A DNA stretch of 55,881 bases, filler included, from Sphacelaria rigidula (GCA_964200075.2; 5 parts of 5 records of this genome joined end to end with filler, not necessarily neighbours in it); one strand, 5' to 3'. Numbered from the whole stretch's first letter, positions 232-55,881 are shown. Notes: generated by a model not told the origin, from the sequence alone. Translations and numbers: made by a program.

Positions 232-3200
232 GATCGTGAAAGCGGGACGCCGGGAATGGGACACGGTGGTGGGCACGGCGGGCATCAGCAGCAGTTCAAC
301 CATCACCATCAGCAGCAGCAGCAAATGGTAGGTCAGATGCAGATGCCCCCGATGGGCGCCTTCGCGGGACAGCCGTTCGCTCCCGGCCCGACGCCACTGA
401 TGGGGCAGCCCATGGGACACATGCAGATGCATCAGCAGATGCAGCACGGTGGTGGCGGCGGTGGTGTGCCGCAGGTGACCCCCCCATCATTAAACGACAG
501 TCAGCAGCAGTAGCAGCAACAGCTCTGTCATTTATCTACATGTGTCATATGTTTTTTGTGGTGTCGTATTGTTGTCCTCATCTGCCTGTCGAGCTTGCGG
601 TGCTTTGCCGAAATTAACTTGGAAATGCTCCGGTTTGCGTCCCGCTGCTGCTCTTGCTGTTGTTGTTGCTGCTGCTGCGGTGGGGCTACTGTGTGTGTGC
701 GCACGCGATTTTTTTCATGTTCATCTCGGAAACTAGGCAACGGGGAATCGCATTTACGTGGGGAACTTGGCCTGGACTGTCGAATGGCAGGAGCTGAAGG
801 ACCACATGCGCACAGTCGGAAAAGTGGTACACGCAGATGTGCTCCAGGACGGAGATGGCCGCTCCAAGGTATGTGCGTGCAGTCCTTCGAGGTTCTCGCA
901 ACACCACAAACTGTTCGTTGCGGATGTTTTGCTTTGTTCTTGTTTCCCCGGGTTGGTTGACCATGCCATTCGTTTCAAGCGGAAATTGCAAGCTTTTTGT
1001 GTACATTCTCCACTTGCAATCTGTGTGGCGATCGGATGAGAAACTAGATGAGGTGTTATTTTCGTTGTCTCCGTCGTCCCGGGAACTTTCTAGAGGGCGT
1101 AAAAAAAGCCTCTCGTCAAAGTTTTCCGCAGTATTATTTGTCTGGAGTATGATATTTATAGTTTCCGTTTCTCTTGTTTCTTTTCCTTCATTCTCCGTCA
1201 CCTCGCTAGGGCTGCGGCATTGTGGAATACGAGGATACGCGCGGCGCCAACCGCGCCATCCGAGAGCTGAACAATACCCCACTCAGCGGACGGCCCATTT
1301 TCGTCCGGGAAGACCGAGAACAGCCCAGCGGGCGCCAGGGAAGGCGTGGTGGTGGCGGTGGGGGTAACCAGCAATCGAATGGAGGCGGAGGGGGAGGAGG
1401 GGGGGGCGGGCCAAGTATTGCGGGTCGTCAACTGTACGTGGGCAACTTGTCGTTCGAGACCACTTGGGCGGACCTCAAGGTCGGTTGTTTGGCTGCGCTT
1501 GGTTGCTTGGTTGTACTCCGTTGTCTCGTGTCGGTTTTTGTTCCACCGGTGTACGAGCTGGGCCAGCCGAGAAGCGATTCCGCAGTTTGCAGGCCGATTA
1601 TACGGCCAATACGTGCAGCTGGACCCTGAAATTTGGTATGGATAATGAGTAGGGCATAATGAAAAAGTTACTGGCGTACACAGGGGATTTTTTTTTCTTC
1701 ATGAGTTTGGGGCATTTTACCGATATCTGAAAACTGATTATTGCCCCCAACTCATGAAAAAAAAAATCCCTCGTGTACGCCAGTAATTTTTTTCATCATG
1801 CCCTACTCATTGTCCATACCAAATTCCAGGGTCCAACTCCAAGTTGTGGCCGTATAATCGGCCGTTTAGTGACGGGATCAGAAGAAATTCGCGACAGTAT
1901 TTTGCAGGCCATTTGCCGGCCCATGTTTGGTGTTTGTGTATTGAAACTTTGTGTGGGGCGTGTCTAGGGCATAATCAAGAAAACAAAGTGGGTCAAGTTG
2001 ATTTTTTTCAATTTTCCACTGGTTTAGGGCGTTCTACCATAGTAAAGACCATATTTCACGAGAACGCCCTTACCTCTATGAAAAAAAGATGGAAGGCCCA
2101 TTTCTTTTTTTATTCGGCACTCTTCGGTGGTTCTCCACACCAAAATTCGTCGTCATCCACTAAATGCATCGATCGGGAGTTTCATATAGATTTTAGTATT
2201 GACGCTATCTCCCCTAGGTAAAGAAATTGGTCATGGGGTTTAATCAACGAGAAAATATGAGCCCAAACTTTTGAGCAGATGAACACCTTCCCCTTGGTTA
2301 GACGACTAATACGATATGCGGGTCATGGCCCAATTCGTCTGTGTCGATGAGATATTGCGTTCAAAGCTTCAATCCGTTTTTAGGCTGGAACAGCTCGTAG
2401 GAAGGACCGTATATTTATGCCGGTGAACTACGTATGCGCTTGAGTAAACGTTCGATCTTGAGTCGCCTGAGGATGGGACAGGCAGGTGCGGGGAAATAAT
2501 GCGAGCTTAATTGTAGACGTCTCGATAGCAAGTGTGGATTTTTCGCTACTAGTTGGGACATGACGCGTTGGCGGTTCTATGATACAAGGGGAGAACGTGT
2601 GCGTCACATGCGGCGCTCGTGAGCTGTCGTTTGTCTCGCACAAGTGGCAACCGGTGCGCAAATCGCCAAAACTTGATGCGTTGTGCCAACCATCGTATTG
2701 ATGACGTGATGTTGTCGGCGACACTCGTGATTCACTGTCACGTTTTTAACCCTTCCTCCGACCCACGAAAAAATAACCAAAAGACACGCTGGAGACAGCA
2801 CACCCAATTTCATGATGGAGCATAGAATCACACTTGTGGTGGCACAACTATACGCGCTACCTCCTCCAGAGAACTTCGGGTCATTCCTTCTTTTCCATAA
2901 CGCGCGACATGACGGTAAATATTTCCCTCAAAGTTACCACAGCAACAGTCCCTACTATGCAAGGATGATGATCATTTTCCTATTCGGGATCTGAAACGCG
3001 GACGCAAGGAACTCACCCCAGAATCGCTCATGATCAGTTTATTCGCACCTGCGGTCAAGGCGCGTGAGCTGTCATTATCAGCAGCCGGAACCAAGTACGG
3101 AGCTTCTCACGATATTGTGATCTTGACTACTTGTTGTGTTGTCCTCACCGTTGATCCTTATCGTTCGTATCAACTGCGTGAGGGTTAGGATGGGTGTCAC

Positions 3201-11097: not shown

Positions 11098-11197
11098 NNN
11101 NNNNNNNNNNNNNNNNNNNNNNNNNNNNNNNNNNNNNNNNNTTAATTAATTAANNNNNNNNNNNNNNNNNNNNNNNNNNNNNNNNNNNNNNNNNNNN
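11098..11197. other. Artificial contig linker
   Basis: 44 N + TTAATTAATTAA (stops in all frames) + 44 N. Confidence 0.99.
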
Positions 11198-13457: not shown

Positions 13458-16400
13458 AACTGGAATTGGTGAAAAACAGAGCAACAAGGAAAAGGACGGC
13501 CTACTACTACAAAAAAAGTGAAATGAAAAAAACGTGAGCACGGTTATTTCTCGCGCCCTGTTCGCCTTTTCTCCTTCCGTCGCCCATTCTTCTTCATTTT
13601 CCCCTCTCTTTACTTTCCACTCATGAGCGAGCTCCTCCGATTAAGCTTGCCATGGACATCGTGTTTACTCTATGTACGCTCATCCAAAAACCACGGCTTA
13701 GATGCACAACGAATCAGTTTAAAATGAGTCCCCAGGTACGATAGGGGGAGGGGGGAGGGGGGGGAGGCGTACTCATGATTTTCCATGCTTCAGTCAAAAC
13801 CAATGAATTCGCGTCCCTACAAAACCGAGACGGAGCACGCCGGGTTTTCACGAGACCAGGCTCGCAATTTATCACCGAGCGCGGAGCGCCGTGATGCGTT
13901 CGGCGAATCGTATGAAGGGTGAGCTGCATCCTGCCAAGATTGTTCACCCGAAGCCTACTGATCATCTTGCATTTGGATGATCCAGACTACGACGAGTTGC
14001 CTCATTTCCTGGTATTGCCACCTTCGGAGACAGCCACGGCTTGAACACGGCCTCATGGGTGTCTCACCATTTGAACACTACTTAGTATAATTACCCCCCT
14101 TTGCGCGTAGTATAGGTTCTCGGCCGACGTCATGGTTACCGCAAAAAAAAGTCAGCAACCTATTACAGTTGCCTAGCTGAAGCAGTAAGTCACATGTTTT
14201 ACAGCGTCACTGCCAACCGATGCCAATCCTACAGGGGGTGGAGAGGGGGGGAAGGGGTGTTTTGGGGCATTGATTTTCACCAATTTCAACTTCAAATCGT
14301 TGTTGGAAGCAGCAAGGTTTGTTCGAACGCGCTTGCCACCAGTAAAAAAATATCATACCACGTGACACAGTTCTCACCCGAATACAAACGCACCGCCAGT
14401 AGTTAGGTCGTTCGACACACTTGTGAGCCCCTTTAGTTCGTAATCAAGAAACCTCCCCCCTTCCCCTCATCCTAGTTAAACGATTCACACACAAGATAGT
14501 TGCGAGAAAATGATCGCTACACTTGGGAGATAAATGATATCCACGAATGGCGCATCAAGTAGGGGCAAGATATTGTGAAGGTTCTTGTGTAGTGTATGGA
14601 AGAAACGTAATTAGCACCCAATTGTCGGAGGTGTCTCCACGATGAGTAGGAACGGTGCTCCGTCGAAAGAAATTAGACAATGGTCAAACGACCAAGGCAA
14701 GCAACGAATAGGTACTTCTCAACCCCCCCCCATCCCCAATCGTAGCGTCATTCTCGAATCGAAACACACGGATACCTTGAGAAGAGCCTTGACAACGTCA
14801 ACATGGCCCATGATAGACGCCTCCATCAGCCCAGAAATTTCGTCTTTGTCCTTCGCGTTCACGTCGGCTCCCTGCAGAAACACCGACCGCGGGTCAACGT
14901 TTGCGTGTTACCCACACAACTACGGATGAATCAACTACATTCGACGCATGGCGTTGAAAAAAATTACATTTACAAAGCTTCATACGGAGTCAGGATACTC
15001 CCAAGTTTTGTAAATAACAGACAAATGCACACCGCCAAAAGTTGACGCCTGGGAGGTGAGGTACAATCCGAATTCATCCACCAATGATTGATTCATGTTA
15101 ACGTCCACTCTCGCGTTCGGCTTTACTCAGAGTATATCGTTCCACCGGAGAAATACAGAGGAAAAACGCACCCTCAATCCCCAAGTGCAAATTATGCGTC
15201 CGTTCTCGTGTGATGAATCAAAATTGTGTTTTCGGCGTGGGGAGATGCCTGGAAGTGCAGGGTTCTTGTTTATAACACCTGACCAGACAGGGATATATAT
15301 GTATCGGGCATTGCAGGTCGAAGCTCGTGAGAGTAGGACTGCGCGCGCACTGCGCGAAGCTGACAGGGGGGTCTAGTGGGTCGAACCCCACGCTGCCTGA
15401 AGCAAAACTTTCCAAGGCTCTACGCACCTACCTCATATGATTGCCGTGAGACAGTATAGCTGAGCCTCTGCGTAATGGGAACACCAACCCGCTTGCGGGA
15501 AAAGTGTTCATTCAGGGTTCGTTCTTCCCTCAAGTGGACAGAAAAAATAACTACTGGGATAAGGTATGGCTTAGCGGGGTGATCGAGCCATGTTCCCAAC
15601 ATCCCATGTTGTTTCGAAAGACTATTTACCGAAACTATTTTGTTCATACTGTTGTACATACGCTACTCCTCGTCGATATCCCCTACAGAACACAACCTTG
15701 GTAATTTCAGGGCCGAAGCTCATGACAGCAGCGCGGCAGGTGCGCTGCGCCAAGTTGGTATGAGGTTCCAGTGGGTTCGACTCCCAGTGCCTCGAGTTGA
15801 GCGAAGCTTGCCACACGCTCGAGGCACCTTCCCCACATGACTGCCACCAGGCGGTCTAGTCGAGCGTCCGGATAATCAACCCTTTTGGAACCCACTGACA
15901 ATATTTGTTTTCGTGAATCGGCACCATCTCGACTTTAAAATGACTAAAAATGATGTCGTTCAAATAAAATAAAAATCGTCAATGGGTTCGGAAAGGGTTA
16001 AAACACGAATTCGGTAGCGGGTCAAGTTTGGGTGTGTTTTCCTTCTTTCTTCGGGGGAAAGAAAAAAAAGGCGGTGATCTTCACGTCACTGACTGCAGCT
16101 GCTGGCTTCTTGCCTTGCGAAACATGATTCACGGACAGCTCGGGGATGAGTATTTCCCCTCTCCACACACGAAACACACAACACTACTCCGATCTCACGC
16201 TTTTACCTTGTCCAGCAAGTGCTTCACGACTTCCAAATGTCCCTGCGATGCCGCTGCAACGAGGGCCGTCAGTTTGTCCCAGTCCTGACTATTCACGTCC
16301 AGACCGTCTTTGAGGTACGCCTTGACCGCATCCATGTCACCATCGGAGGCGGCCGTAATGAACCTGCGAGTCACGTACAACACGTTTCGTTTTCTCGTAC

Positions 16401-22294: not shown

Positions 22295-22394
22295 NNNNNN
22301 NNNNNNNNNNNNNNNNNNNNNNNNNNNNNNNNNNNNNNTTAATTAATTAANNNNNNNNNNNNNNNNNNNNNNNNNNNNNNNNNNNNNNNNNNNN
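22295..22394. other. Artificial contig linker
   Basis: 44 N + TTAATTAATTAA + 44 N. Confidence 0.99.
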
Positions 22395-33490: not shown

Positions 33491-33590
33491 NNNNNNNNNN
33501 NNNNNNNNNNNNNNNNNNNNNNNNNNNNNNNNNNTTAATTAATTAANNNNNNNNNNNNNNNNNNNNNNNNNNNNNNNNNNNNNNNNNNNN
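33491..33590. other. Artificial contig linker
   Basis: 44 N + TTAATTAATTAA + 44 N. Confidence 0.99.
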
Positions 33591-44686: not shown

Positions 44687-44786
44687 NNNNNNNNNNNNNN
44701 NNNNNNNNNNNNNNNNNNNNNNNNNNNNNNTTAATTAATTAANNNNNNNNNNNNNNNNNNNNNNNNNNNNNNNNNNNNNNNNNNNN
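44687..44786. other. Artificial contig linker
   Basis: 44 N + TTAATTAATTAA + 44 N. Confidence 0.99.
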
Positions 44787-44989
44787 ATGATCATGAGTAC
44801 ACCCCCCCCCCCCTATAGTAGGATGACTCTGCGGCTAGATCAACCTATTATGCCTTTGAGCTGTCGACATTGAACACAGTACTCTTGGCCCTGTACCCAC
44901 CTTGCGCTGACCGGCTGTACACGTGGAGCGCCGTTGTGGGTCTTACGTTGACCCTTTTTCACTGCTTCTGCGTCGTGACTACATTATAG

Positions 44990-47900
44990 GGCAAGTATAC
45001 TGAGGCCGACCGTCTCTTCGAGCGATGTCAGGCGATGCTGGAGAAGGTTCTCGGCCCGGAGCACCTGACCTTGGCCGAAACGCTCGACGACCGTGCGGGT
45101 TTGTTTCAAGCTCAGGTTAGAGCCGATGAAACTTTGTCGTAGTAGTGTGTCGACCCTATGAACGACATTGTGTAGTGTTGATGTTGGTCGATCGTCCTGA
45201 GAACCAACGTTGACTGACAGAGTCAGTGCGGGAACGCCAGCCTGTTTTACCCCTGAGCCATCGGGATCGGGCGCAGGGCTCTTGACCCTGTAGACACAGC
45301 GCTCACCGGCTGCACATCAAGGTGGGGCGGTGTGTGTAAGCGTCTCGCAACCGTTGTGAATCCGACATTGATAGTTATGGGCTGCTTTCGCGTCATGAAC
45401 TGCATTCTATTGTTGACATACGGCATGCTGTGCTTTATGCAGGGCAAGTACGACGAGGCTGAGACACTCTACGAGCGGTGCCAGGTGATGAGAGAGAAGA
45501 TTCTCGGGCCGGAGCACCCGGTCTTCGCCTTCACGCTTCACAGCCGTGCGCAGTTGTCGAAAGCCCAGGTGAGAGCCGGTCGAACATTGTCGTAGTCGTT
45601 TGATGATGCGTGAAGAACGTTGTTTGGTGTTGGCATTGTTCACTGGTCCGGTGGGTAAGCTTAACTGACCAAGTGAGTGCGGCGAGGCCAGCCCGTTGTA
45701 TCTCTGAGCCGGCAAGACTGGGCAAAGTATAGACCCTGTACACATATCGCTCGCCGCCTGCACACGTGGGCGGGGCGGTAGCGTGAGCGTCTTGCAGCCG
45801 ATGTGGGTTCGACGTTCACCATTGCGGGATATTTCTGCGTCGCTTACTGCATTGCAGGGCAAGTACGCTGAAGCTGAGGAACGCTATGAGCGGTGCCAGG
45901 CGATCAGAGAGAATATTCTTGGTCCGGAACACCCAAGCGTAGCGGCAACGCTTGGGAGCCGTGCGGTGCTGCTTCAGGCTCAGGTGAGAGCCGATGGAAC
46001 TCCCTCGTGATCGTGTATCGTTGCGTGAAGGACACTGTGTGGTGTTGATGTTGTTTCCTGGTCCTGTGGGCAACGTTGACCGCAAGTGTCAGTGTGGCGG
46101 TGCCTGCCCGTTGTACCTCTGAGCGGTAGAGATCTGGCATGGTATCCTCGGCCCCGAACGTGTGGCCCTCTCCGGCTGTACAACTAGGCGGGGCGGTGAC
46201 GCGAGCTTCTGGCCGACGTTGTAGGTTCAGTATTGACTTTTACAGGCTGTCTCTACGTTTTGTACTCATTGCAGGGCAAGTATACCGAGGCCGAGGTACT
46301 CTACGAGCGGTGCCAGGCGGTGCAGGAGAAGGTTCTTGGCCCAGTGAATCCTAATTTGGCCACGACGCTTCACAACCGTGCGGGGTTGTTGCGAGACCAG
46401 GTGGGAGTAAATGTATATTTCTCGTTGTCGTGTGTCGACGTGTGAAACATTGTATGGTGCTGACATTCTCGCTCAACCTGTAAGCCAAAGTTGATTAACA
46501 GAGTGACTGCAGCAGGGCGAACCTGTTATAGCTCTAAGCCATCGAGATCGAGCACAGTGTCGTTGACTGTACACATAGCCGTTGGCGAGGCGGTAGCGCA
46601 AGCGTCTCGCTAAGGCTCCAGGTCCGATGCTGGCCGTCACAAGGTGCTGCTACGTCGTGTACTACATTGCAGGGCAAGTACGCCGAGGCTGAGACACTCT
46701 ACGAGCAGTGCCAGGCGATCGAGGAGAAGGTTCTCGGTCCGGAGCACCCACATTTGGCCACAACGCTGAACAACCTTGCGGGGTTGTTGCGAGACCAGGT
46801 GGGAGTCAATGTACCTTTCTCGTTGTCGTGTGCCGAGGTGTGGACGGCATTGTGTGGTGCTGATATTCTTGCTTCACCTGTGGGTTAAAGTTGACTAACA
46901 TAGTGACTGCAGCAGGGCGAACCTGTTATAGCTCTGAGCCATCGAGATCGAGCACAGTTATGGGGGGGGTGAATGGGGCCCGATTTTGGGCACTATATAT
47001 CGGTAAAATGGACCGACCACAATCCATTGCAGAAAAAATGACGCGTAATCGAGCCAATCGTATCAATCACAAATACACACATCATCTCCAAATAACGACC
47101 TCGCTCATATGAGATGTAGTCTAACTTCAGTACATATTTACAAGCCTGTGAGGGGTCGGTGTCGCGGAAATGTAGTTGCTCCGGCGACTGCACTGATAGA
47201 TTGTTGTGTGCTTGTTTCGTTTAGCTGTTGCACGCGGGACTTACACACCCACTACATTCCACCCAACATTCACTGTCCTTCTCAACATCAGCAGACAAGA
47301 ACACGAAAAGTGGCAGCAGTTGCGGGCGTCACCCCCAAAACCAACCCTACCTAACCCTTTACTCACATACCCCACAAACGAAGCAGCACAGAATATTCAG
47401 ACAATCAGCACATGTGTCGAGTATCGTGGAACCGGCGAGAATGATGTAGACGACGTTGACGAAGATAAAGCGATTCACGCTGTGCGTCTGGGCTGCTCAT
47501 TGCATACCCCGCACCTTCCTGTGATGGCGGGTTCGGAGAGCAATTACTCCATGGGCCCCATGGGCTCAGGATCGTGGCACGAGGGGAAGGAATCACTTTT
47601 GTATTCTCCACCCCTGAAAGCAAACCGTCAACGGCAAACTCCACCTCTGCGACACAAGACACAAGACGTTTAGAGCTATCAGTGTTGAACCGTCGTGTTG
47701 CCTTTTGTGTCATGCCGACCACCACGGCAGCGCAAAGGAGCGCTGCGTAATCAAGGTCCCCACATATCCACTTCACATTACATCGGCACAGAGCAAGTGC
47801 TGGAATGTGCATGTTGGCGCAAATACCCTTGCTCATTTTTGCTTTGTAGTATATAACCCTGAAACCAAGCATTCGATCGAAACTGCAACTTGCCAACCAC

Positions 47901-50900
47901 GATGTTTACATACTTCCTCTGTCTTATAAGTCTGTGCCGAATTGATTTTACGGCCACTTAACCGTGTCCGATGTCTTGGGCGCTAATTTTTTCGAAATCT
48001 TGAGCGATTTTTGGGTTGAAATCCATCTCTTTTTTTTTTCAGCTTGCGCTTAAACCATGCGGCCGAAGGGCCGGAAAACATTGAGTCGGCCCAAAAACGG
48101 CCATATTTTGTCCCTTTCCAGGGGGGCGGTGGGTGGGGCACTTAGCCTAAACCTCCCCTAAAAACACAAGAATTAGCCCAACCCTTGAGCTAACCCCCCC
48201 TATACTCAACCATCCATGACGTGTCCCCTATAATAAAACCAGTATAATAGTTACCCCACACTAAAACGAAGACACTTGGGGATCCCACACTAAAACCAAG
48301 ACACTTGCGGGGCAAAAACAACAACAGTAGGGCCCGAACCCAGCCCCCCTCTACTCAACGATCCATGTCGGGTCCCCCCATACTCGAACCAGTATAATAG
48401 TGAACCCACACTAAGACTAAGATACCTGGGGTTCCACATTAAAACCAATATACTTGGGGGGCCCACACTAAAACCAAGACACTTGTGGGCAAAAAAACAA
48501 CATAGTGCCCGAACCCACCCCCCCTCTACTCAACGATCCATGTCGCGTCCCCCTATACTCAAACCAGTATGATAGTGACCATACACTAAAACTAAGACAC
48601 TTGTGTTTCCACATTAAAACCAAGACACTTGCGGGCAAAAAAAGTGTCTGTTGGTGTTGGGGGAAAAAAAGGGTCAGGGTTAAAATATTCTCAAAAAGGG
48701 CCAAAATGGGCATATTTTGACCTAATTTTTGTGTGTAACACGGTCTTCGATTATTTTTTTTTTAGCCGACTTTGTATGTGTTTTGCCTTTCTAACGCACC
48801 GAACCAAAGGTTAAACGTCAACGTGTAAGTATCCAAACGAATTCACGCGCAATTCGGCACGGACTTATGAGACAGAGGAAGTATTGTTGTTAGTGTACAA
48901 AGGCGGTTGTGGCAACAAACATCGTGGCTGCTGCTATTAGTCAGTGAAGTGTGGTACACCGACGATGGTCAAAACCGCTTTTCACACGTGGGTTTCGGCG
49001 CTTGATCCGTCCGACGTACGCTCAGGCGGCTGTCACGTGTGACCTTGCCCACTTCAATTCGAGAGGTGGCGGGTATTTGCTGTTGTAACGCGAAGTCGCT
49101 TTGCACAGCCACACAGAGGAAACCAGCACGTGGCTTGTTATCGATGCACACAGGCAGTAGTGACAGCACATTTCCTCCAATTTGTTGGGAAAAGGAATCG
49201 ACCCTTGTACACAAGCGCATACAAGAAATAAGTACTACATGGCAGGACGTAAGATACATACACATCTTCCCCCATGTCGAACTGTTCACATATTGTTAAT
49301 AGTATTCACAGTCAGTTACGGGAAACATCATCGCTGTCTCTCGACTGTGAAAGGACCAAAGAACCGAGAAAAAACATTAGGCGCACCGACTTGGCTTATA
49401 CGCCCCGACACTCTGACGTGAAACGGACGCGTTGAGCCTTTCGGTGGCCACCTTGAGTCTTTTTTCAGCCTTCTCCACGCGTTGAGGCGCCGCCTGGAGC
49501 TTGCGTGCGGCTGTCACGGCACAGGATAAGTCTTGACCGGTATTTTCCTTGTACGTCGTGCATGCTGCGCAGGAGGTCGCTTCAATCCTGAGTTTCGAAA
49601 CACCGAGCTTTTCAGAATTCACCATTTTTCACCTCGATAAACGCTGCTGTTCCTGAAGCCGTAAGTGCCGATTTTTCAACGCAGATGTCTCGGCAACGAA
49701 GCAGGGGGTTGAACTGTGGTTTGATGCGTGCGCTTCCTACACACCAGAACTTTTCAGTGCCGCGGCGGATTCCCGTGACGCGCCGCGGGGCCCGCAGCAC
49801 TTGGCAAACCGCCAAAATGTAATGAAAACGCGTTCTGTTCGACGTTCGGGGGCGTTTCGGATCCGCTGTGGCGAATTGAGCAAGGCTGCCGCGGTGCTGA
49901 ATAGATCCAGTGTGTGCGCTGGGGGCTGCCAGGTTCCACAGACCAATTTGCTTCCCGTCTCGAGATTTGTGCGATGGAAAAATTACAGCTGTCGCATACT
50001 TAACGTGGGTAATGGTGGAGCGTGTGTTATGTTCGGCAGAGGTTCGGCAGAGGTTCGGCACAGGTCCGACCAGTCAATAACGTCTTTCATACGTCTTCAA
50101 TATCCCTCCACGTTCATATTTGTTTTTGTTGACAACAGAGTTCTGGTCGGTAAGGCCTTCATTCACCCCCATAACAGTGTCCTTGATCCTGTAAACGTAG
50201 CTGTTAGCGGGGCGGTCGCGCAAGCGTCTCGCAATATCCCTCCGCGTTCATATTTGTTTTTGTTGACAACGGAGTTTTGGTCGGTAAGGCCTTCATTCAC
50301 CCCCATAACAGTGTCCTTGACCCTGTAAACATAGCCGTTGGCGGGGCGGTAGCGCAAGCGTCTCGCTAAGGCTCTAGGTCCGACGTTGGCCGTCACAAGG
50401 TGCTGCTATGTCGTGTACTACATTGCAGGGCAAGTACGCCGAGGCTAAGACACTCTACAAGCGGTGCCAGGCGATCGAGGAAAAGGCTTTCAGCTCGGAG
50501 AACCCACATTTGGCCACAACGCTCAACAACCTTGCGGGTTTGTTGGAAGCTGAGGTAAAAGTTACGAAACTTCCTCGTAGTCGTGTGTCGACGTGTTGAA
50601 CGATGTTTGGTGGTGGAGATGTTGTTCGCTGGTCTTGTGGGCCAGCGTTGACTGACAGATTGTGTAGGGTAATGTCCCGCCGCCATACCTGTGAGCTGTC
50701 GAGATCCGGTATAGCACCCTGGCCATGTACACACAGCGCTCGCCGACTGCACACGAGGGTGAGGTGGCGGTCTGAACGTCTTTTCACCGTTCAAGGTCCG
50801 CCGTTCTAGGTCCACTTTTAACTGTTCTAGGCGGCTCCTACGCCACGTACTACATGACAGGGCAAGTACGCCGAGGCCAAGCCAGTCTACGAGCGGTGCC

Positions 50901-53900
50901 AGGTGATGCAAGAGAAGCTTCTCGGCCCGGCGCACCCTAGCCTGGCTGCGACGATCCACAATCGTGCGGGATTGTTGAAAGCTCAGGTGCGAGCCGATGA
51001 AGCTTGTTCGTTGTTGGGTGTCCGTGTGGGCGATATTGTGTGTTTTCGATGTTGTTCCCTAGTGCTGTGGGCCAGCGTTGACTGAGACGGCGGTCTCGGT
51101 TAGGCCATCCCGTTGTACCTCTGGGTCGTGGAGATCAGGCATTTTACTCTTGATCCTGTACATACTTGCTGCACACCTGGGCGGTATGGTGGCGTGAGCA
51201 TCTCTCCGCCGTTGAAGCTCTGGCCTTTACCGATCTGGGCTACTCCCGCGATCTTCACTACATCGCAGGGCAAGTACGCCGAGGCTGAGCCACTTTTAGA
51301 GCGGTGCCAGGCGATGCAGGAGAAGGTATTCGGCTCTGAGCACCCAAACGTGGCGGCAGCGCTGGGAAGCCGTGCGGAGCTGTTGCAAGCTCGGGTGAGA
51401 GCCAATGGAACTTTGTCGTAGCCGTGTTCACGCGTGAACGACATCGTGTGGTGTCGATGTTGTTATTTGGTCCTGTTGGACAACGTTTACCGAGAGAGTG
51501 CAGCAATGCTAACCTGTGGTACATCTGAGCCGTCGGGGTTTTGCATAGTACCTTCGACCCTGTATATATACGGTAGCGCTCGTCGGCTGCACATCAAGGC
51601 GGGGTGGTGGTGCGAGCGTCGCGCCACCGTTGTGGGTCCGCCGCTGACTGTTATAGGTTGCTCCTGCGTCATGGACTACATTGCAGGGCGAGTTCCCGGG
51701 GGCGGAGAAAATCTTCAAGCGGTGCCAGGTGATGCTGGAGAAGGTTCTCGGCCTGGAGCACCCAAGCTTGGCCACAACGCTTAACAACCTTGCGGGTTTG
51801 TTGCAAGCTCAGGTATGAACCGATGGAACTTCCTAGTTACGTATCGACGTGTGAGCGACAACATGCGTTTTTGAAGTTGTTCGCTGGTGCTGTGAGCCAA
51901 CGTTGACATAGAGGGCGCGTGCGGCGAGCCCAACTCATGGTACCTCTGAGCCGTAAAGACGAGGCAATCGGCGTCGTGTCTACGTTGCAGGGCAGGTACA
52001 TCGAGGCTGAGGTTCTCTACGAACGGTGCCAGGCGATCCAGCAGAAGGTTCTCGGCCCGAAGCACCCAAGTCTGGCCACAACGCTTAGCAACCGTGCGAG
52101 TTTGTTGAAGTGTCAGGTAAAGGCTAACGGAACTTCCTGCCAGTTGTGTGATTATGTGTAAACGTTTTTGTGTCGTGTTGGTGGTGTCCGCTGGTCTCGT
52201 GCGCCAACGTTGACTGAGGGTGAGTGTGGCGAAGCCAACTCGTTGCACCCCTGAGCCGACGTGATGCGCCATAGTTCCCTTGGCCCTGTACACACAGCGA
52301 TTCTCGGCTGCACATCTGGGTGGCGCGGTGGCGCGAACGTCTTGGTGCCGTTGTCGGTTCGACGTTGACTGCTACGGGCTGGATCTGCATCATGTACTAC
52401 ATTCCAGGGCAAGTACGCTGAAGCCGAGCCACTTTTCGAGCAGTGCCAGGAGATGAAGGAGATGATTCTCGGCATGGAGCACCCAAGCTTGGCCGCCACA
52501 CTCCGCAACCGTGCGGTGTTGTTGCAAGCTCAGGTGAGAGCGGATGGAGATTTGTTGGTGTCGTGTGTCGGCATATAAATGGCTTCGTGTGGTGTTGACG
52601 TTGTTCGCTGCTTCTGTGTGGTCGACGTTGACTGAGGGGGTGAGTGCGGCGAGGCCAACCTATTGCATATCTCAGCCGTCGATAGTGGGGATCGTATCAA
52701 TAGCCCTTCCTGTACACATCGCTCGCCGGCTGCACACCTGAGCGGGGTATTGCCCGTACGCCTCGCCGCCGTACTAGATCCGACGTCGACTGTTTCACGC
52801 TGCGTCTGCGTCCTTAACGACATTGCAGGGCAAGTACGCCGAAGCGGAGTCACTCTGCGAGCGAAGCCAGGCGATGCAGCAGAAGATTCTCGGCCCCGAG
52901 CATCCTGACTTGGCTGCAACCCTGTGTAGTCGGGCGAGGTTGTTGGAAGCTCAGGTGAGAGCCGTTGGAACCCCTCATCATCGTATGTCGACATGTCAAC
53001 GACACTGTGTAGCATCGGTGTAGTTCGCCGGTGCTGTGGGCCAACGTTGATTGACAAGGTGAGTGCCGCTAAGCTGAATAGAGGCACCTATGAGCGATCG
53101 AGATCTGGCATATTGCCCTTGACCCTGTACACGTAGGCCTCTCCCGCTGCACACCTAGGCTGGGCGGTGGCACGAGCGTCTCGCCGCCGTTGCGGGTTCG
53201 AGGTTGACTGTTATCGGTTGTTTGTGTCTCGTGCTACGGTGCAGGGCAAGTATGCCGACGCTGAGTCACTGTATGAGCGGTGCCAGGCGATCGAGGAAAA
53301 GGTTCTCGGCCCGGAGCACCCTAGCCTGGCTATAACGATCCACAATCGTGCGGGTTTGTTGCTAGCTCAGGTGCGAGCCGATGAAACTTGTTCGTTGTTG
53401 GGTGTCCGTGTGGACGACATTGTGTGTTTTCGATGTTGTTCGCTAGTGCTGTGGGCCAAAGTTGAACGAGAGGGCAGTCTCGGTTAGGCCATCCCGTTGT
53501 ACCTCTGGGTCGTGGAGGTCATGCATTTTTCTCTTGGCCCTATACATGATTGCTGCACACCTGGGCGGTATGGTGGCGCGAGCATCTCTCCGCCGTCGCA
53601 TATCCGACGTTGATGGTTACAAGATGCTCCTGCGTCGTGCACTGTATTACAGGGCAAGTACAACGAGGCTGAGCCACTTTTGGAGCGGTGCCAGGCGATG
53701 CAGGAGAGGGTTCTCGGCCTGGTGAACCCTGATTTAGCCGCAACGCTTCACAGCCGTGCGGGACTGTTGCAAGCTCAGGTGAGAGCCAACGGAACTTTGT
53801 CGTAGTCGTCTGTCAACTTGTACACGACATCGTGTGGTGGAGATGTTGTTATTTGGTCCTGTGAGCCAACGGTGACTCGGGAAATAAGTGCGGTGAAGTC

Positions 53901-55615
53901 AACTTGTTGTACATCTGAGCTGTCGAGTTCAGGCATAGTATTCTCGGCCCTGTCGGCACATTGCTCACCGGCTGCACATATGGACTAGCAATGGTGGAAG
54001 CTTCTGGTCCCCGATGTGGGTCCAATGTTGACCGTTACATGCTGCTCCTGAACCGTGTACTACATTTCAGGGCAAATACGCCGAGGCTGAGCCGCTATAT
54101 GAACGGTGCCAGGTGATCAAGGAGAAACTTCTTGGCCCCGACCACTCTGACTTGGCCGCCACGATCAACAACCGTGCGGGGTTATTGGAAGCTCAGGCGA
54201 GAGTCGGTAAAACGTTCTCGTGTTCGTGTGAAGGACATTGTGTGGTGTTGATGTTTGCTGATCCTGTGGGCCAGCGTTGTCTGAGAGGGTAAGTGCTGCC
54301 AGACGAATCCGTTGTACCCCTGAGCAGTCGAGATTGGGCATAGTATCCGTGGTCCTGTACACACATCGCTCACCGGCGGCACACCTGAACGGAGCGATGG
54401 CGCAAATGTCTCGCCGCCGTCATAAGTCAGACGTTGATTGTCACGCGATGCTTCTGCGTCGTTTCTACATTGCAGGGCAAGTACACCCAGGCTGAGCCAC
54501 TCTACAAGCGCTGCCAAGCGATACTGGAGAAGGCTCTCGGCCCGGAGCACCCGAACTTGGCCAGAACGCTTCAAAACCGTGCGTGGTTGTTGCAAGCTCA
54601 GGTGAGAGCCGATGTACCTTTCTCGTAGTCGTGTGTCGACGTGTTGACTGAGAATGTGATTACCCCGAGACCAATCCGCTGTACGTTTGAGTGGTCGAGA
54701 TCGGGAAGAGTACTCTTGGCGCTGTACACACATCGCTCGCCGGCTGTGCACCAGGGCAGGGTGGTGGCGGGAGCGTCTCGTCGCTATTGTGTCCGGCGTT
54801 TACTGTTCTAGGCTTGTTGTGCGTCGTACACTACATTGCAGGGCAAGTATGCTGAGGCTGAGCCACTTTACGAGCAGTGTCAAGCGATCGAGGAAAACGT
54901 TTTCGGTCCGGAGCACCCGAGCCTGGCCATGACGCTTCGCAACCGTGCGGGGTTGTTTCAAGCTCAGGTGAGAGCCGATGGAACTTTGTCGTTGTTGTGT
55001 GTTGGTTTGAACGACATTGTGGTGTTGATGTTTGCTGGTGGTGTTGACTGAGAGGGTGGAAGCGTGGAAGTCAACCCCTTTGTTTGTCCTTGACGGATGT
55101 AACAAACCCAACCTAACACTTACCTCCCAAGCGAGTTCGTGTCCCGATTAGCCAAATGCTCGGCTAGACTGCCTCGCGGCAGTCATATGGGGAAGGCGCC
55201 CCGGGCGTTCGCAAGCTTTGCTGAAGGCAGTGTGGGGGATGCTCCCACTAAACCACCTATCAACTTGGCGCTGTGCACGCGCCGCCATGCTCTCAGGAGC
55301 TTCGGCCCTAGAGAAAGCCATCCCTTCGTACCCCTTAGCCGTCGAGATCGGGCGTAGTACCCTTCGCCTTCGCACGCATCGGAGGCCGGCTGCACACAAA
55401 GGCGAGGCGGTAACCCGGGCATCTCTCCGCCGTTGTAGATCCGACGCTGACTGCTACAGGCTACCCCTGCGTCGTATACTGCACTGCAGGGCAAGTACGC
55501 CGAGGCCGAGCCACTTTTCGAGCGGTGCCAGGCGATGCAGGAGAAGGTTCTCGGCCCGGTAAACCGTGATTTGGCCGTCACGCTCCACAACCGTGCGAGG
55601 TTGTTGCAAGCTCAG
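44990..55615 (+). CDS. Array of 18 one-repeat-per-exon 42-aa TPR exons (kinesin light chain/TPR_10-12 type; probable NB-ARC-TPR-like receptor), open at both ends
   Basis: 126-nt phase-0 exons start at 44990, 45443, 45858, 46275, 46673, 50429, 50861, 51269, 51687, 51991, 52408, 52829, 53245, 53653, 54071, 54476, 54842 and 55490. Consensus GKYAEAEPLYERCQAxxEKVLGPEHPxLAxTLxNRAxLLQAQ. All have YAG acceptors; 17 have GT donors and 1 has a GC donor. No stops or frameshifts. Confidence 0.95.
46959..50173. mobile_element. ~3.2-kb TIR DNA transposon (decayed or non-autonomous) in TPR intron 5
   Basis: Termini TATGGGGGGGGTGAATG / CATTCACCCCCATA, flanked by ACAGT at 46954-46958 and 50174-50178. The paralogous intron 4 shows the empty site GAGCACAGTGTC. 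No intact transposase recognised. Confidence 0.85.
47913..48881. mobile_element. 969-bp Tc1/mariner-type (Stowaway-like) MITE nested in the TIR element
   Basis: TA + CTTCCTCTGTCTTATAAGTCTGTGCCGAATTG ... CAATTCGGCACGGACTTATGAGACAGAGGAAG + TA. Three internal tandem units at ~48195-48644. Confidence 0.85.
50099..50366. repeat. 134-bp tandem duplication spanning the transposon right junction
   Basis: Units 50099-50232 and 50233-50366 each contain the TIR, ACAGT and ~54 nt of host intron. Confidence 0.92.
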
Positions 55616-55881
55616 GTGAGAGATGTACCTTTATCGTGGTCTTGTGCCGACGCGTGAACGATATCGTGTGGTGTTGATGGTCCTGGATGATCCTGTGGGA
55701 CAACATTGACTGAGGGTGAGTGCGGAGAAGCCAACCTGTTATATCGGGCATACCCGTACTTGTGCGAGTCATCGCACACCCCCTGAACCGAACGTCAAAG
55801 CTCGATTACTCTATGACGAAGAGGGTGACAATGCCAAACGACGCGTTTTTGGACATCTATCGACGAGATATTTCCAGCGTC

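What the first reader, a model, noticed from the sequence alone, without database searches (positions are those of the whole stretch)
44990..55615. Modular TPR exon cassette array: candidate combinatorial immune/recognition receptor
Seen: 18 exons of exactly 126 nt, all phase 0 and all open, each encoding one 42-aa TPR unit, on a ~416-nt exon+intron period. Any exon can be skipped, duplicated or swapped without a frameshift. Homologous intron sequence continues upstream of exon 1 and downstream of exon 18, so the array is probably larger. Known: brown algal (Ectocarpus) NB-ARC-TPR and ROCO-LRR genes have one-repeat-per-exon arrays proposed as exon-shuffled pathogen receptors. The class is therefore described, but how it diversifies is not settled. 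Inference: this locus generates receptor diversity by alternative splicing and/or DNA rearrangement. The N-terminal NTPase domain is not in the window.
Basis: partly seen in the sequence, partly recalled or inferred. Interest (0 to 1): 0.88.

Follow-up and report, generated by a model that had tools for sequence, protein, structure and literature searches.

The report
Brown-algal TPR receptor exon array
This is a real run of 18 one-repeat exons from a brown-alga TPR gene of an already described candidate immune-receptor type, and the RNA data seen here show neighbouring exons spliced in order, not shuffled.

Summary
There are 18 open, phase-0 exons of exactly 126 nt on the + strand, with 18 AG acceptors, 17 GT donors and one GC donor. 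Each matches the exon profile built from these same 18 exons at E 1e-24 to 1e-28, and the six scanned hit Pfam TPR_12/TPR_10.

The window is five unlinked contigs of about 11.1 kb joined by N linkers. The array fills the last contig, 44787-55881, which is why no NTPase domain is nearby.

The exon motif and boundaries match the Ectocarpus NB-ARC-TPR exons of Zambounis 2012. The closest proteins are brown-algal NB-ARC-TPR proteins. Contig 1 encodes a protein identical to one NCBI names Sphacelaria rigidula.

Three probable RNA runs join 11 of the 17 neighbouring exon pairs at the predicted sites; a DNA run shows none of these joints. No exon-skipping joint fits this locus letter for letter.

Units are old copies, about 76% identical in exons and 63-68% in introns, with dN/dS 0.34. 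There are no inverted copies or pseudo-exons.

Both diversification ideas are already in print. Verdict: a new member of a known kind, of low to moderate interest.

The parts
44687..44786 (.). Artificial contig joiner (44 N + TTAATTAATTAA + 44 N). Everything before it is an unlinked contig.
   Evidence: the same joiner also starts at 11098, 22295 and 33491
44787..44989 (+). Start of the array contig. The first ~40 nt are a poly-C, high-copy repeat; the rest is the 3' part of an intron homologous to the array's introns, ending in the acceptor TATAG.
   Evidence: (X3 depth 24354 in the first bin)
44990..45115 (+). TPR exon 1 (126 nt, 42 aa)
   Evidence: spliced to exon 2 in X6, X7, X8
45443..45568 (+). 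TPR exon 2
   Evidence: joints 1-2 and 2-3
45858..45983 (+). TPR exon 3
   Evidence: joints 2-3 and 3-4
46275..46400 (+). TPR exon 4
   Evidence: joint 3-4
46673..46798 (+). TPR exon 5. With its flanks it is the closest copy of unit 6 (83% over 351 nt).
46799..50428 (+). Intron 5 (3630 nt), swollen by high-copy non-coding repeats from about 46967 to 50312. It contains a 975-nt element with inverted ends and two tandem duplications.
   Evidence: X3 depth 1200-8400 against 25-140 over the TPR units; none of 5 ORFs scanned inside it has a Pfam hit
47910..48884 (.). Element with 35-nt terminal inverted repeats (94% complementary), nested in intron 5. Contigs of X6 and X7 join 47910 to 48882, that is, copies of the surrounding repeat without this element.
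50429..50554 (+). TPR exon 6
   Evidence: joint 6-7 in one 278-nt contig with no mismatch
50861..50986 (+). TPR exon 7. The intron after it is 92% identical to the intron after exon 13 over 130 nt.
   Evidence: joints 6-7 and 7-8
51269..51394 (+). TPR exon 8
   Evidence: joints 7-8 and 8-9
51687..51812 (+). TPR exon 9 (starts GEF, the most divergent start)
   Evidence: joints 8-9 and 9-10
51991..52116 (+). TPR exon 10. It follows the shortest intron (178 nt).
   Evidence: joints 9-10 and 10-11
52117..52407 (+). Intron 10. It is spliced out, but is also present unspliced in a 347-nt contig in all three RNA-like runs, at similar depth.
   Evidence: table 8 records 13, 20, 28 and the joint 52113->52405
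52408..52533 (+). TPR exon 11
   Evidence: joint 10-11
52829..52954 (+). TPR exon 12
   Evidence: no joint listed for it (table cut)
53245..53370 (+). TPR exon 13
   Evidence: joint 13-14 in X6 and X7
53653..53778 (+). TPR exon 14
   Evidence: joint 13-14
54071..54196 (+). TPR exon 15, the only one with a GC donor. The GC-AG intron (279 nt) is removed in X6 and X8.
   Evidence: joint 54193->54473, which can be shifted by 3
54476..54601 (+). TPR exon 16
   Evidence: joints 15-16 and 16-17
54842..54967 (+). TPR exon 17
   Evidence: joint 16-17
54968..55489 (+). Intron 17 (522 nt). It holds a high-copy repeat from about 55146; 55146-55309 is 75% identical to 15709-15877 on another contig of the window.
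55490..55615 (+). TPR exon 18
55616..55881 (+). 5' part of a further homologous intron (to about 55745). A repeat begins at about 55753 and the contig ends in it.
   Evidence: loose ends at 55753 in X6-X8

Best explanation
The region is an internal piece, at least 18 repeats long, of the C-terminal TPR array of a brown-algal gene of the NB-ARC-TPR type. These are STAND NTPases put forward as pathogen sensors.

Shown here:
- Each 126-nt phase-0 exon encodes helix B of one TPR, an 8-residue linker, and helix A of the next TPR. Every helix hairpin is therefore completed across an exon junction.
- The locus is transcribed, and neighbouring exons are spliced in genomic order.
- The whole ~416-nt unit, exon plus intron, is the repeated module. 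Copies are old. The framework is under purifying selection.
- The most variable residues include exon positions 30, 33, 37 and 40, which are TPR positions 2, 5, 9 and 12.

Inferred:
- The array grew by unequal crossing-over of exon-plus-intron units in the germ line and then diverged.
- The spliced product is one long TPR superhelix whose groove binds a ligand.
- It sits behind an NB-ARC domain encoded beyond the contig end. Ligand binding would release that NTPase switch to oligomerise and signal, as in other STAND/NLR proteins.
- Diversity lies mainly among repeats and among paralogous genes, not in per-cell exon choice.
For: Anatomy: 18 of 18 exons are 126 nt and open, with 18 AG acceptors, 17 GT donors and 1 GC donor. 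The exon profile, built from these same 18 exons, finds them at E 1e-24 to 1e-28 and nothing else in the window. Pfam gives TPR_12 and TPR_10.

Register: exon residues 1-18 align to positions 15-32 of TPR_1 and TPR_2. In the relative P0003, TPR_1 positions 2-31 cover residues 955-984 and a G-K-Y start lies at 968.

Family: the consensus follows the Ectocarpus search motif from G-K-Y to the final Q, and that paper describes 126-nt, 42-aa exons. When the 120 listed hits were ranked by best per-exon identity, 8 of the top 10 carry PF00931 in the precomputed lists. Pfam re-scan found NB-ARC in 4 of 4 relatives checked, N-terminal to 42-residue-spaced repeats. One of these is P0008, which NCBI names Sphacelaria rigidula.

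Organism: the ORF at 1210-1482 is 100% identical to an NCBI protein named Sphacelaria rigidula, on a contig of 11097 nt, which is the length of the window's first piece.

Expression and order: contigs of X6, X7 and X8 join exons 1-2, 2-3, 3-4, 6-7, 7-8, 8-9, 9-10, 10-11, 13-14, 15-16 and 16-17 exactly at the predicted borders. Several do so with no mismatch. The DNA-like run X3 covers the region but has none of these joints.

History: exon nucleotide identity averages 76% (range 66-87%). Intron ends are 63-68% identical against 41% for shuffles. The introns align end to end. Mean dN is 0.224, mean dS 0.658, ratio 0.34, and 6 of 153 pairs exceed 1. The best unit pair is 83% identical, and a four-unit block at 50374-51954 matches 52774-54328 at 72.7%. 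Variable sites are exon positions 4, 8, 17, 27, 30, 33, 37 and 40.
Against: - The NB-ARC domain is not seen. The contig ends about 200 nt before exon 1, no genome is held, and nothing NB-ARC-like is in the window.
- Two of the ten closest relatives (P0005, P0051) list no NB-ARC. Brown algae also have repetitive TPR loci outside the NB-ARC family (PMC3341825).
- No protein identical to exon 2 is in the 5.8-billion-protein collection; the best match is 62%. The gene model is therefore unknown.
- Six of 17 neighbour junctions (4-5, 5-6, 11-12, 12-13, 14-15, 17-18) were not among the joints shown. Splicing across the 3.6-kb intron 5 is unproven.
- The three runs are only guessed to be RNA. They are short assembled contigs, which drop rare isoforms, so they cannot exclude exon skipping.
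- Non-neighbour joints do exist in them.
- Unspliced contigs across introns 9 and 10 show some processing variation.
- That TPR positions 2, 5, 9 and 12 line the binding groove is recalled from the TPR literature and was not tested here.
- No ligand or function has been shown for any member of this family.
Confidence: 0.68

Rival explanations
1. Combinatorial alternative splicing: the 18 or more interchangeable phase-0 exons are included in varying subsets, so one locus yields many TPR surfaces. 2023 for NB-ARC-TPR genes.
For: - All exons have the same length and phase, so any subset keeps the frame.
- The framework residues that pack helix A against helix B are conserved (G1, A6, Q14, A29, A36 and L38 are invariant). 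Hybrid hairpins should therefore fold.
- Alternative splicing of this gene family is reported in print: title and citing passages only. For ROCO LRR exons, passages of PMC11378527 were read.
- One exon has a GC donor.
- Contigs with introns 9 and 10 retained exist beside the spliced forms, and non-neighbour joints are present in X6-X8.
Against: - 11 of 17 neighbour junctions are seen, and no listed joint is a clean skip.
- The 'exon 6 to exon 18' joint starts 3 nt before the end of exon 6 and reads CAG where this locus has GAG. The 'exon 18 to exon 17' joint needs an extra G and reads an exon end of CGG. They therefore fit paralogues or alleles better than skipping at this locus.
- No 31-mer is shared between the 18 exons, so these joints are not assembly chimeras within the locus either.
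- Splice sites are uniformly strong, and no conserved intron structure of the docking/selector kind was found: RNAalifold gives -3.1 kcal/mol with a covariation term of +0.36.
- Contigs cannot show rare isoforms, so this is weak evidence against.
Confidence: 0.15
2. DNA-level shuffling: ongoing somatic or very frequent germ-line rearrangement of the exon cassettes generates receptor diversity. This is the hypothesis of Zambounis 2012.
For: - The array is a tandem repeat whose introns are homologous too, a ready substrate for recombination.
- There is one younger duplication (unit 5 / unit 6, 83%) and a 134-nt tandem duplication in intron 5.
- X3 holds a contig joining 45065 to 50510.
- The hypothesis is in print (PMC3341825, section 27 read).
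Against: - Units differ by 13-34% in exons, with dS about 0.66, so there has been no recent homogenisation or burst.
- There are no TPR copies on the minus strand and no inactivated exons in introns. Those were the signs of shuffling described in Ectocarpus.
- The eight X3 pieces listed are collinear with the window.
- The X3 45065->50510 joint has only 22 letters on its shorter side, 5 foreign letters, and a depth of 173 against 30-50 locally, so it looks like a paralogue.
- PMC11378527 states that no somatic recombinants or dedicated recombinases have been reported in brown algae.
- Short contigs cannot exclude rearrangement.
Confidence: 0.03
3. Same TPR array but a different gene type: a TPR-only protein, or one with another N-terminal module (TIR plus NB-ARC, or a non-NTPase domain), so it would not be a plain NB-ARC-TPR.
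For: - P0001 (Scytosiphon), among the closest relatives, has TIR + NB-ARC + TPR.
- P0005 and P0051 list no NB-ARC.
- Ectocarpus has other repetitive TPR loci.
- Many bacterial hits with similar repeats carry CHAT domains.
Against: - 8 of the 10 most similar proteins have NB-ARC.
- In Ectocarpus the genes with repetitive 42-aa TPR exons form one NB-ARC clade.
- Models lacking NB-ARC may simply be partial.
Confidence: 0.2
4. Decaying remnant: a pseudogene array broken by repeat insertions, with any transcripts coming from intact paralogues.
For: - A 3.6-kb repeat-filled intron splits the array 5 + 13, and there is a second repeat in intron 17.
- No predicted protein matches exon 2.
- The Ectocarpus family has many pseudogenes (P0004 is named 'likely pseudogene').
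Against: - 18 of 18 exons are open with intact splice sites, and dN/dS is 0.34.
- Spliced contigs match this locus with no mismatch, for example exons 6-7 over 252 nt.
Confidence: 0.05

Closest known systems
Ectocarpus NB-ARC-TPR genes with repetitive TPR exons (Zambounis et al. 2012, PMC3341825; Teng et al. 2023, Plant J, not held)
   Same: - 126-nt, 42-aa phase-0 exons, one per repeat, with the same start (G-K-Y) and end (Q) and the same internal motif.
- Exons lie on the coding strand only.
- The host is a brown alga.
- The nearest proteins belong to this family.
   Different: - A different order of brown algae; NCBI names an identical neighbour-contig protein Sphacelaria rigidula.
- NB-ARC is not seen.
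- There are no inactivated intronic exons here, whereas these were reported in Ectocarpus loci.
- The best per-exon identity to any listed protein is only 62-73%, and matches are not collinear, so no orthologue was found.
Kinesin light chain TPR domain (closest solved structures, e.g. 7ai4_A, 3nf1_A)
   Same: The same 42-residue KLC-type repeat, TPR_12/TPR_10. The exon profile matches KLC1/KLC2 chains at E 1e-37 to 1e-32, repeat by repeat.
   Different: - KLC has about six repeats behind a heptad coiled coil (recalled); this array has at least 18.
- The best full-length relatives here are NB-ARC proteins, not KLC.
Brown-algal ROCO LRR genes (PMC3341825; PMC11378527)
   Same: A tandem one-repeat-per-exon design in a candidate immune-receptor family of the same organisms. 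Alternative splicing of the repeat exons is reported.
   Different: 72-nt LRR exons in phase 2, an LRR fold rather than TPR, and copies on the non-coding strand. None of that is found here.
Dscam-type mutually exclusive exon arrays
   Same: Tandem arrays of same-length, same-phase exons that could in principle be chosen combinatorially.
   Different: No conserved docking/selector RNA structure in the introns, and neighbouring exons are joined to each other in RNA contigs rather than excluded.

Membership tests
Brown-algal NB-ARC-TPR (clade with repetitive TPR exons) | TPR domain encoded by tandem 126-nt (42-aa) phase-0 exons, one per repeat | tested here: met
   18 of 18 exons; definition from PMC3341825 passages
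Brown-algal NB-ARC-TPR (clade with repetitive TPR exons) | Exon motif from G-K-Y-x-E-A at the start to L-L-x-x-Q at the end | tested here: met
   Consensus of alignment A1 against the motif printed in the paper. The printed motif has 3 fewer unspecified residues in the middle.
Brown-algal NB-ARC-TPR (clade with repetitive TPR exons) | NB-ARC (PF00931) domain N-terminal to the TPR array in the same gene | not testable with these tools
   The contig starts 203 nt before exon 1. No genome is held. No NB-ARC-like coding is in the window, best E 0.25.
Brown-algal NB-ARC-TPR (clade with repetitive TPR exons) | Nearest relatives are members of the family | tested here: met
   8 of the 10 most similar of 120 listed proteins carry PF00931. 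NB-ARC was confirmed in 4 of 4 re-scanned.
Brown-algal NB-ARC-TPR (clade with repetitive TPR exons) | Signs of exon shuffling: inactivated or truncated TPR exons in introns (described for the family, not obligatory) | tested here: not met
   The profile search of six frames finds only the 18 intact exons. There are no minus-strand copies.
Brown-algal NB-ARC-TPR (clade with repetitive TPR exons) | Alternative splicing of TPR exons (claimed by Teng 2023) | tested here: inconclusive
   Only neighbour joints fit the locus. Contigs drop rare forms, and 20 joints were not shown.
Pfam TPR_12 / TPR_10 | Match to the family profile | tested here: met
   6 of 6 exons scanned (of 18) have E 2e-10 to 4e-6 for TPR_12. 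Three of the 6 pass the 30.1-bit cut-off as single repeats.
Kinesin light chain | About six TPRs behind an N-terminal heptad coiled coil | tested here: not met
   There are at least 18 repeats here. The repeat sequence similarity is real. The KLC architecture is recalled. The coiled coil cannot be tested because the 5' part is missing.
Dscam-like mutually exclusive splicing | Conserved complementary docking and selector sequences in introns; one exon chosen per cluster | tested here: not met
   There is no conserved structure in 15 aligned introns. Neighbouring exons are joined to each other.
Somatic cassette assembly (V(D)J or VLR-like) | DNA forms with different cassette content within an individual; recombination signals or donor cassettes | tested here: inconclusive
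   Listed X3 DNA pieces are collinear with the window, but they are only 196-401 nt long and come from another sample. No inverted or partial cassettes were found.

The most novel reading that the evidence does not exclude
The non-neighbour RNA joints and the retained introns 9 and 10 could be the first glimpse of regulated exon choice at this locus. On that reading, one brown-algal gene would read out many TPR groove combinations from 18 or more interchangeable half-hairpin exons, with each junction creating a hybrid TPR. This would be a Dscam-like somatic repertoire in a stramenopile. The data here do not exclude it, because only assembled contigs were available, six junctions were not shown, and rare isoforms are lost in contigs.
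Probability: 0.1. Interest if true: 0.7.

Novelty: new member of a known kind. Interest (0 to 1): 0.25.

Why it matters
Brown algae evolved multicellularity on their own, and their immune receptors are known only from sequence. This locus adds a clean, fully intact and expressed example, with at least 18 exons, from a lineage far from Ectocarpus. It shows three things:
- The repeated module is the whole exon-plus-intron unit.
- Exon borders cut each TPR between its two helices.
- Much of the variation sits on the residues expected to line the binding groove.

It also gives a concrete place to test the two published diversification ideas with long reads. It does not open a new class: the architecture (2012) and the alternative-splicing idea (2023) are already in print.

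Tried and rejected
1. The whole genome of the window is not held, so the 5' part of the gene could not be sought.
2. Earlier notes of this scan: nothing by place or by words.
3. No listed run is on record as RNA. X6-X8 are 'RNA?' by the tool's guess. I treat them as RNA only because they hold spliced forms that X3 lacks.
4. The bin 52557-52926, which holds most of exon 12, has almost no cover in X6-X8. No contig joins across it in the listed rows, so I draw nothing from it.
5. Conserved intron RNA structure: 15 introns were aligned and RNAalifold gave -3.1 kcal/mol with no covariation support. Rejected.
6. Degenerate or reverse-strand TPR exons: none found.
7. Transposon proteins: 5 ORFs within intron 5 and 1 ORF that starts in intron 17 and runs into exon 18 (55152-55562) were scanned, with 0 Pfam hits at E up to 0.01.
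8. An exact or near-exact predicted protein for this locus: exon 2 alone gave 58 hits, the best at 62% identity.
9. An orthologue among the 120 listed profile hits: none is collinear, and the best mean per-exon identity is 73%.
10. Teng et al. 2023 could not be read because it is not held. Supplements of PMC3341825, with the lists of positively selected TPR sites and inactivated exons, are closed, so my variable sites could not be compared with theirs.
12. Kinesin light chain as the gene's identity: rejected on repeat number and nearest relatives.

Full report
**What the window is.**
- Four identical joiners (44 N, TTAATTAATTAA, 44 N) cut the 55,881-base window into pieces of 11097, 11097, 11096, 11096 and 11095 nt. 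Most of the piece ends shown next to the joiners are homopolymer G or C runs.
- This is what a draft assembly sorted by length looks like when neighbouring contigs are strung together.
- The finding lies wholly on the fifth piece, 44787-55881. Nothing before 44787 is physically linked to it.
- No whole genome is held for the window.

**The observation.**
- A motif scan and a coordinate check find 18 units on the + strand at exactly the places given. Each is 126 nt and open.
- All 18 are preceded by AG. Seventeen are followed by GT and one, exon 15, by GC.
- A profile built from the 18 translations, run over all six frames of the whole window, recovers these 18 at E 4e-24 to 3e-28. It finds nothing else better than E = 1. 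There are no copies on the other strand, none inside introns and none on the other four contigs.
- Six exons scanned against Pfam all hit TPR_12 and TPR_10. Three of the six pass the TPR_12 cut-off as single repeats.
- The period is about 416 nt for most units, but the distances range from 304 to 453. There are two outliers: 3756 (intron 5, 3630 nt) and 648 (intron 17, 522 nt).
- The flanks are homologous to the internal introns. The 130 nt before exon 1 are 46-67% identical, and the 130 nt after exon 18 are 65-75% identical, against 41 +/- 14% for shuffles.
- BLAST matches to other units start at 44929 and run to 55745.
- The array therefore runs off both ends of its contig. Both ends lie in high-copy repeats (depth table and loose ends).

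**What the exons encode.**
- The 18 translations align without gaps at 76% mean column identity. G1, A6, Q14, A29, A36 and L38 are invariant.
- Exon residues 1-18 align to positions 15-32 of the 34-residue TPR_1 and TPR_2 models.
- In the relative P0003, TPR_1 positions 2-31 cover residues 955-984, while an exon-type G-K-Y start lies at 968.
- Each exon is therefore helix B of one TPR, an 8-residue linker, and helix A of the next.
- The closest solved structures are kinesin light chain TPR domains, at E 1e-37 to 1e-32.

**Which family.**
- The Ectocarpus paper on NB-ARC-TPR genes (PMC3341825; outline, passages and sections 22 and 27 read) describes 13 NB-ARC loci. Their TPR domains are built from 126-nt, 42-aa exons.
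- It prints a search motif that starts G-K-Y-x-E-A and ends L-L-x-x-Q. The consensus here follows it.
- A profile search of the large protein collection, restricted to longer proteins, scored 8000 candidates and listed 120. The top is dominated by brown-algal proteins: Scytosiphon, Ectocarpus, Sphacelaria and unnamed EukProt entries.
- I ranked the 120 by best ungapped identity to each exon. Of the ten most similar (62-73% mean), 8 carry PF00931 in the precomputed lists. None is collinear with the array, so no orthologue is among them.
- Pfam re-scan of four of them finds NB-ARC at residues 160-490 in all four, followed by repeats spaced 42 residues apart. One, from Scytosiphon, also has an N-terminal TIR domain.
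- The window itself holds nothing NB-ARC-like: tblastn of ten N-terminal parts gives a best E of 0.25.
- Exon 2 searched alone finds no identical protein, the best being 62%. This locus is therefore not represented by a gene model in that collection, at least not one that contains exon 2.

**Organism.**
- An RRM-protein ORF on the first contig (1210-1482) is 100% identical to an NCBI protein named Sphacelaria rigidula. That protein's contig is 11097 nt long, the length of that piece.
- P0008, an NB-ARC-TPR protein of the same named species, is a paralogue at about 70% per-exon identity.
- One DNA-like holder of the array is labelled 'algae metagenome'.

**Transcription and splicing.**
- Of 11 coded runs, I laid X3 (DNA-like, another study) and X6, X7 and X8. 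The last three are guessed to be RNA and each holds about a fifth of the sampled words, roughly the exon share.
- All are assembled contigs, so depth and absence mean little.
- In X6-X8, contigs join exons 1-2, 2-3, 3-4, 6-7, 7-8, 8-9, 9-10, 10-11, 13-14, 15-16 and 16-17 at the predicted borders. The skipped lengths are 327, 289, 291, 306, 282, 292, 178, 291, 282, 279 and 240 nt, equal to the intron lengths.
- Nine of these joints are seen in all three runs and two are seen in two runs. The GC-AG intron 15 is among those removed.
- X3 covers the same places with unspliced pieces and shows none of these joints.
- Several spliced contigs match with no mismatch, for example a 278-nt contig over exons 6 and 7.
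- That makes 11 of 17 neighbour junctions. The other six were not among the 15 joints printed, and 20 more joints were not shown.
- Unspliced contigs across intron 10 (347 nt, depth 14-18, against 18-35 for the spliced form) and intron 9 (one run) are also present.

**Joints that are not neighbours.**
- The RNA-like runs also hold these joints:
  - 50551->55487, nominally exon 6 to exon 18
  - 55613->54841 with one extra G, nominally exon 18 back to exon 17
  - 55559->44988
  - 51771->51264 with 36 foreign letters
  - 45461->46297
- Read against the exon ends, the first implies an exon ending in CAG where exon 6 ends in GAG. The second implies an exon ending in CGG where exon 18 ends in CAG.
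- They are therefore not clean products of this locus. The 18 exons share no 31-mer, so they are not within-locus assembly chimeras either.
- Transcripts of paralogous or allelic TPR genes are the simplest reading. I could not test this without the genome.

**History of the array.**
- Exon nucleotide identity between units averages 76% (range 66-87%). The 130 nt at the intron ends average 68% at the 5' end and 63% at the 3' end.
- Fifteen introns align end to end with 64% mean column identity.
- The duplicated module is therefore the whole exon-plus-intron unit, as expected from unequal crossing-over.
- Mean dN is 0.224 and mean dS 0.658, a ratio of 0.34. Six of 153 pairs exceed 1. Identity by codon position is 0.77, 0.81 and 0.69. 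The exons are under purifying selection and the copies are old.
- The youngest pair is unit 5 / unit 6, at 83% over 351 nt. Units 6-9 match units 12-15 as a block at 72.7%. The intron after exon 7 is 92% identical to the one after exon 13.
- The most variable residues are exon positions 33, 30, 8, 27, 17, 37, 40 and 4. Positions 30, 33, 37 and 40 are TPR positions 2, 5, 9 and 12 on helix A.
- From the TPR literature as I recall it, those positions face the concave binding groove. That step is recalled, not tested.

**Introns and repeats.**
- Intron 5 carries about 3.3 kb of sequence that is hundreds of times deeper than the TPR units in X3.
- Inside it lie a 975-nt element with 35-nt inverted ends (47910-48884), a 175-nt tandem repeat and a 134-nt tandem duplication.
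- Five ORFs inside intron 5, and one that starts in intron 17 and runs into exon 18, have no Pfam hit.
- RNAalifold on the 15 aligned introns finds no conserved structure: -3.1 kcal/mol with a covariation term of +0.36.

**Verdict on mechanism.**
- The best-supported reading is an internal part of a long TPR sensor array of a brown-algal NB-ARC-TPR-type gene. It was built by germ-line tandem duplication of exon-intron units. It is expressed and spliced in genomic order into one long superhelix.
- Linkage to NB-ARC and the sensor function are inferred from relatives and from what is established for STAND/NLR proteins.
- Combinatorial splicing and DNA shuffling remain possible but gain no support here.
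- Both are already in print: Zambounis 2012 for shuffling, and Teng 2023 for splicing (title and citing passages only). PMC11378527 states that no somatic recombinants have been reported.

**Novelty.**
- This is a new, well-preserved member of a known kind, from a second brown-algal order.
- The added observations are the exon register relative to the TPR hairpin, the unit-level homology of the introns, the direct neighbour-junction evidence and the absence of shuffling scars.
- I could not check whether these points are already made in Teng 2023 or in the closed supplements.

Noticed in passing
window 11098-11197, 22295-22394, 33491-33590, 44687-44786: The window is a chain of five separate contigs of about 11.1 kb, joined by 44 N + TTAATTAATTAA + 44 N. 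Most of the contig ends shown are poly-G or poly-C runs. Any reading that links features across these points is invalid.
   Followed up: yes
window 47910-48884: A 975-nt element with 35-nt terminal inverted repeats (94% complementary) lies inside the repeat-filled intron 5. Contigs in X6 and X7 join 47910 to 48882, which looks like copies of the surrounding repeat without the element. The skipped stretch begins with TA. It is probably a non-autonomous DNA transposon.
   Followed up: partly
window 48256-48635 and 50098-50365: There is a 175-nt tandem repeat (2.2 copies, with a 29-nt sub-repeat) inside the intron-5 repeat. There is also a 134-nt tandem duplication (94% identical) of the intron's 3' part just before exon 6.
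   Followed up: no
window 52088-52434 and 51784-52017: Unspliced contigs across intron 10 are present in all three RNA-like runs, at depth 14-18. One across intron 9 is present in one run at depth 7. Both occur beside the spliced forms. Retention of intron 10 would bring a stop 15 codons into the intron.
   Followed up: partly
window 54197-54475: Intron 15 has a GC donor, the only non-GT donor of the 18, and it is spliced out in X6 and X8.
   Followed up: yes
window 45411-45442: Intron 1 has 32 extra nucleotides at its 3' end compared with the other introns. The ancestral acceptor position reads CTAT instead of GCAG, and a new acceptor is used 32 nt downstream.
   Followed up: no
window 55146-55309 and 15709-15877: A repeat in intron 17 is 75% identical, in reverse orientation, to a stretch on the second contig. 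It is a dispersed repeat family of this genome and is very deep in X3.
   Followed up: no
window 1210-1482 (+): An exon of a two-RRM RNA-binding protein. It is 100% identical to an NCBI partial protein named Sphacelaria rigidula and 74-77% identical to Ectocarpus and other brown-algal homologues.
   Followed up: partly
window 44787-55881, runs X6-X8: Non-neighbour joints (50551->55487, 55613->54841 plus G, 55559->44988, 51771->51264 plus 36 letters, 45461->46297) recur in two or three runs. They do not fit this locus letter for letter. They are probably expressed paralogous TPR genes, but this is unproven.
   Followed up: partly
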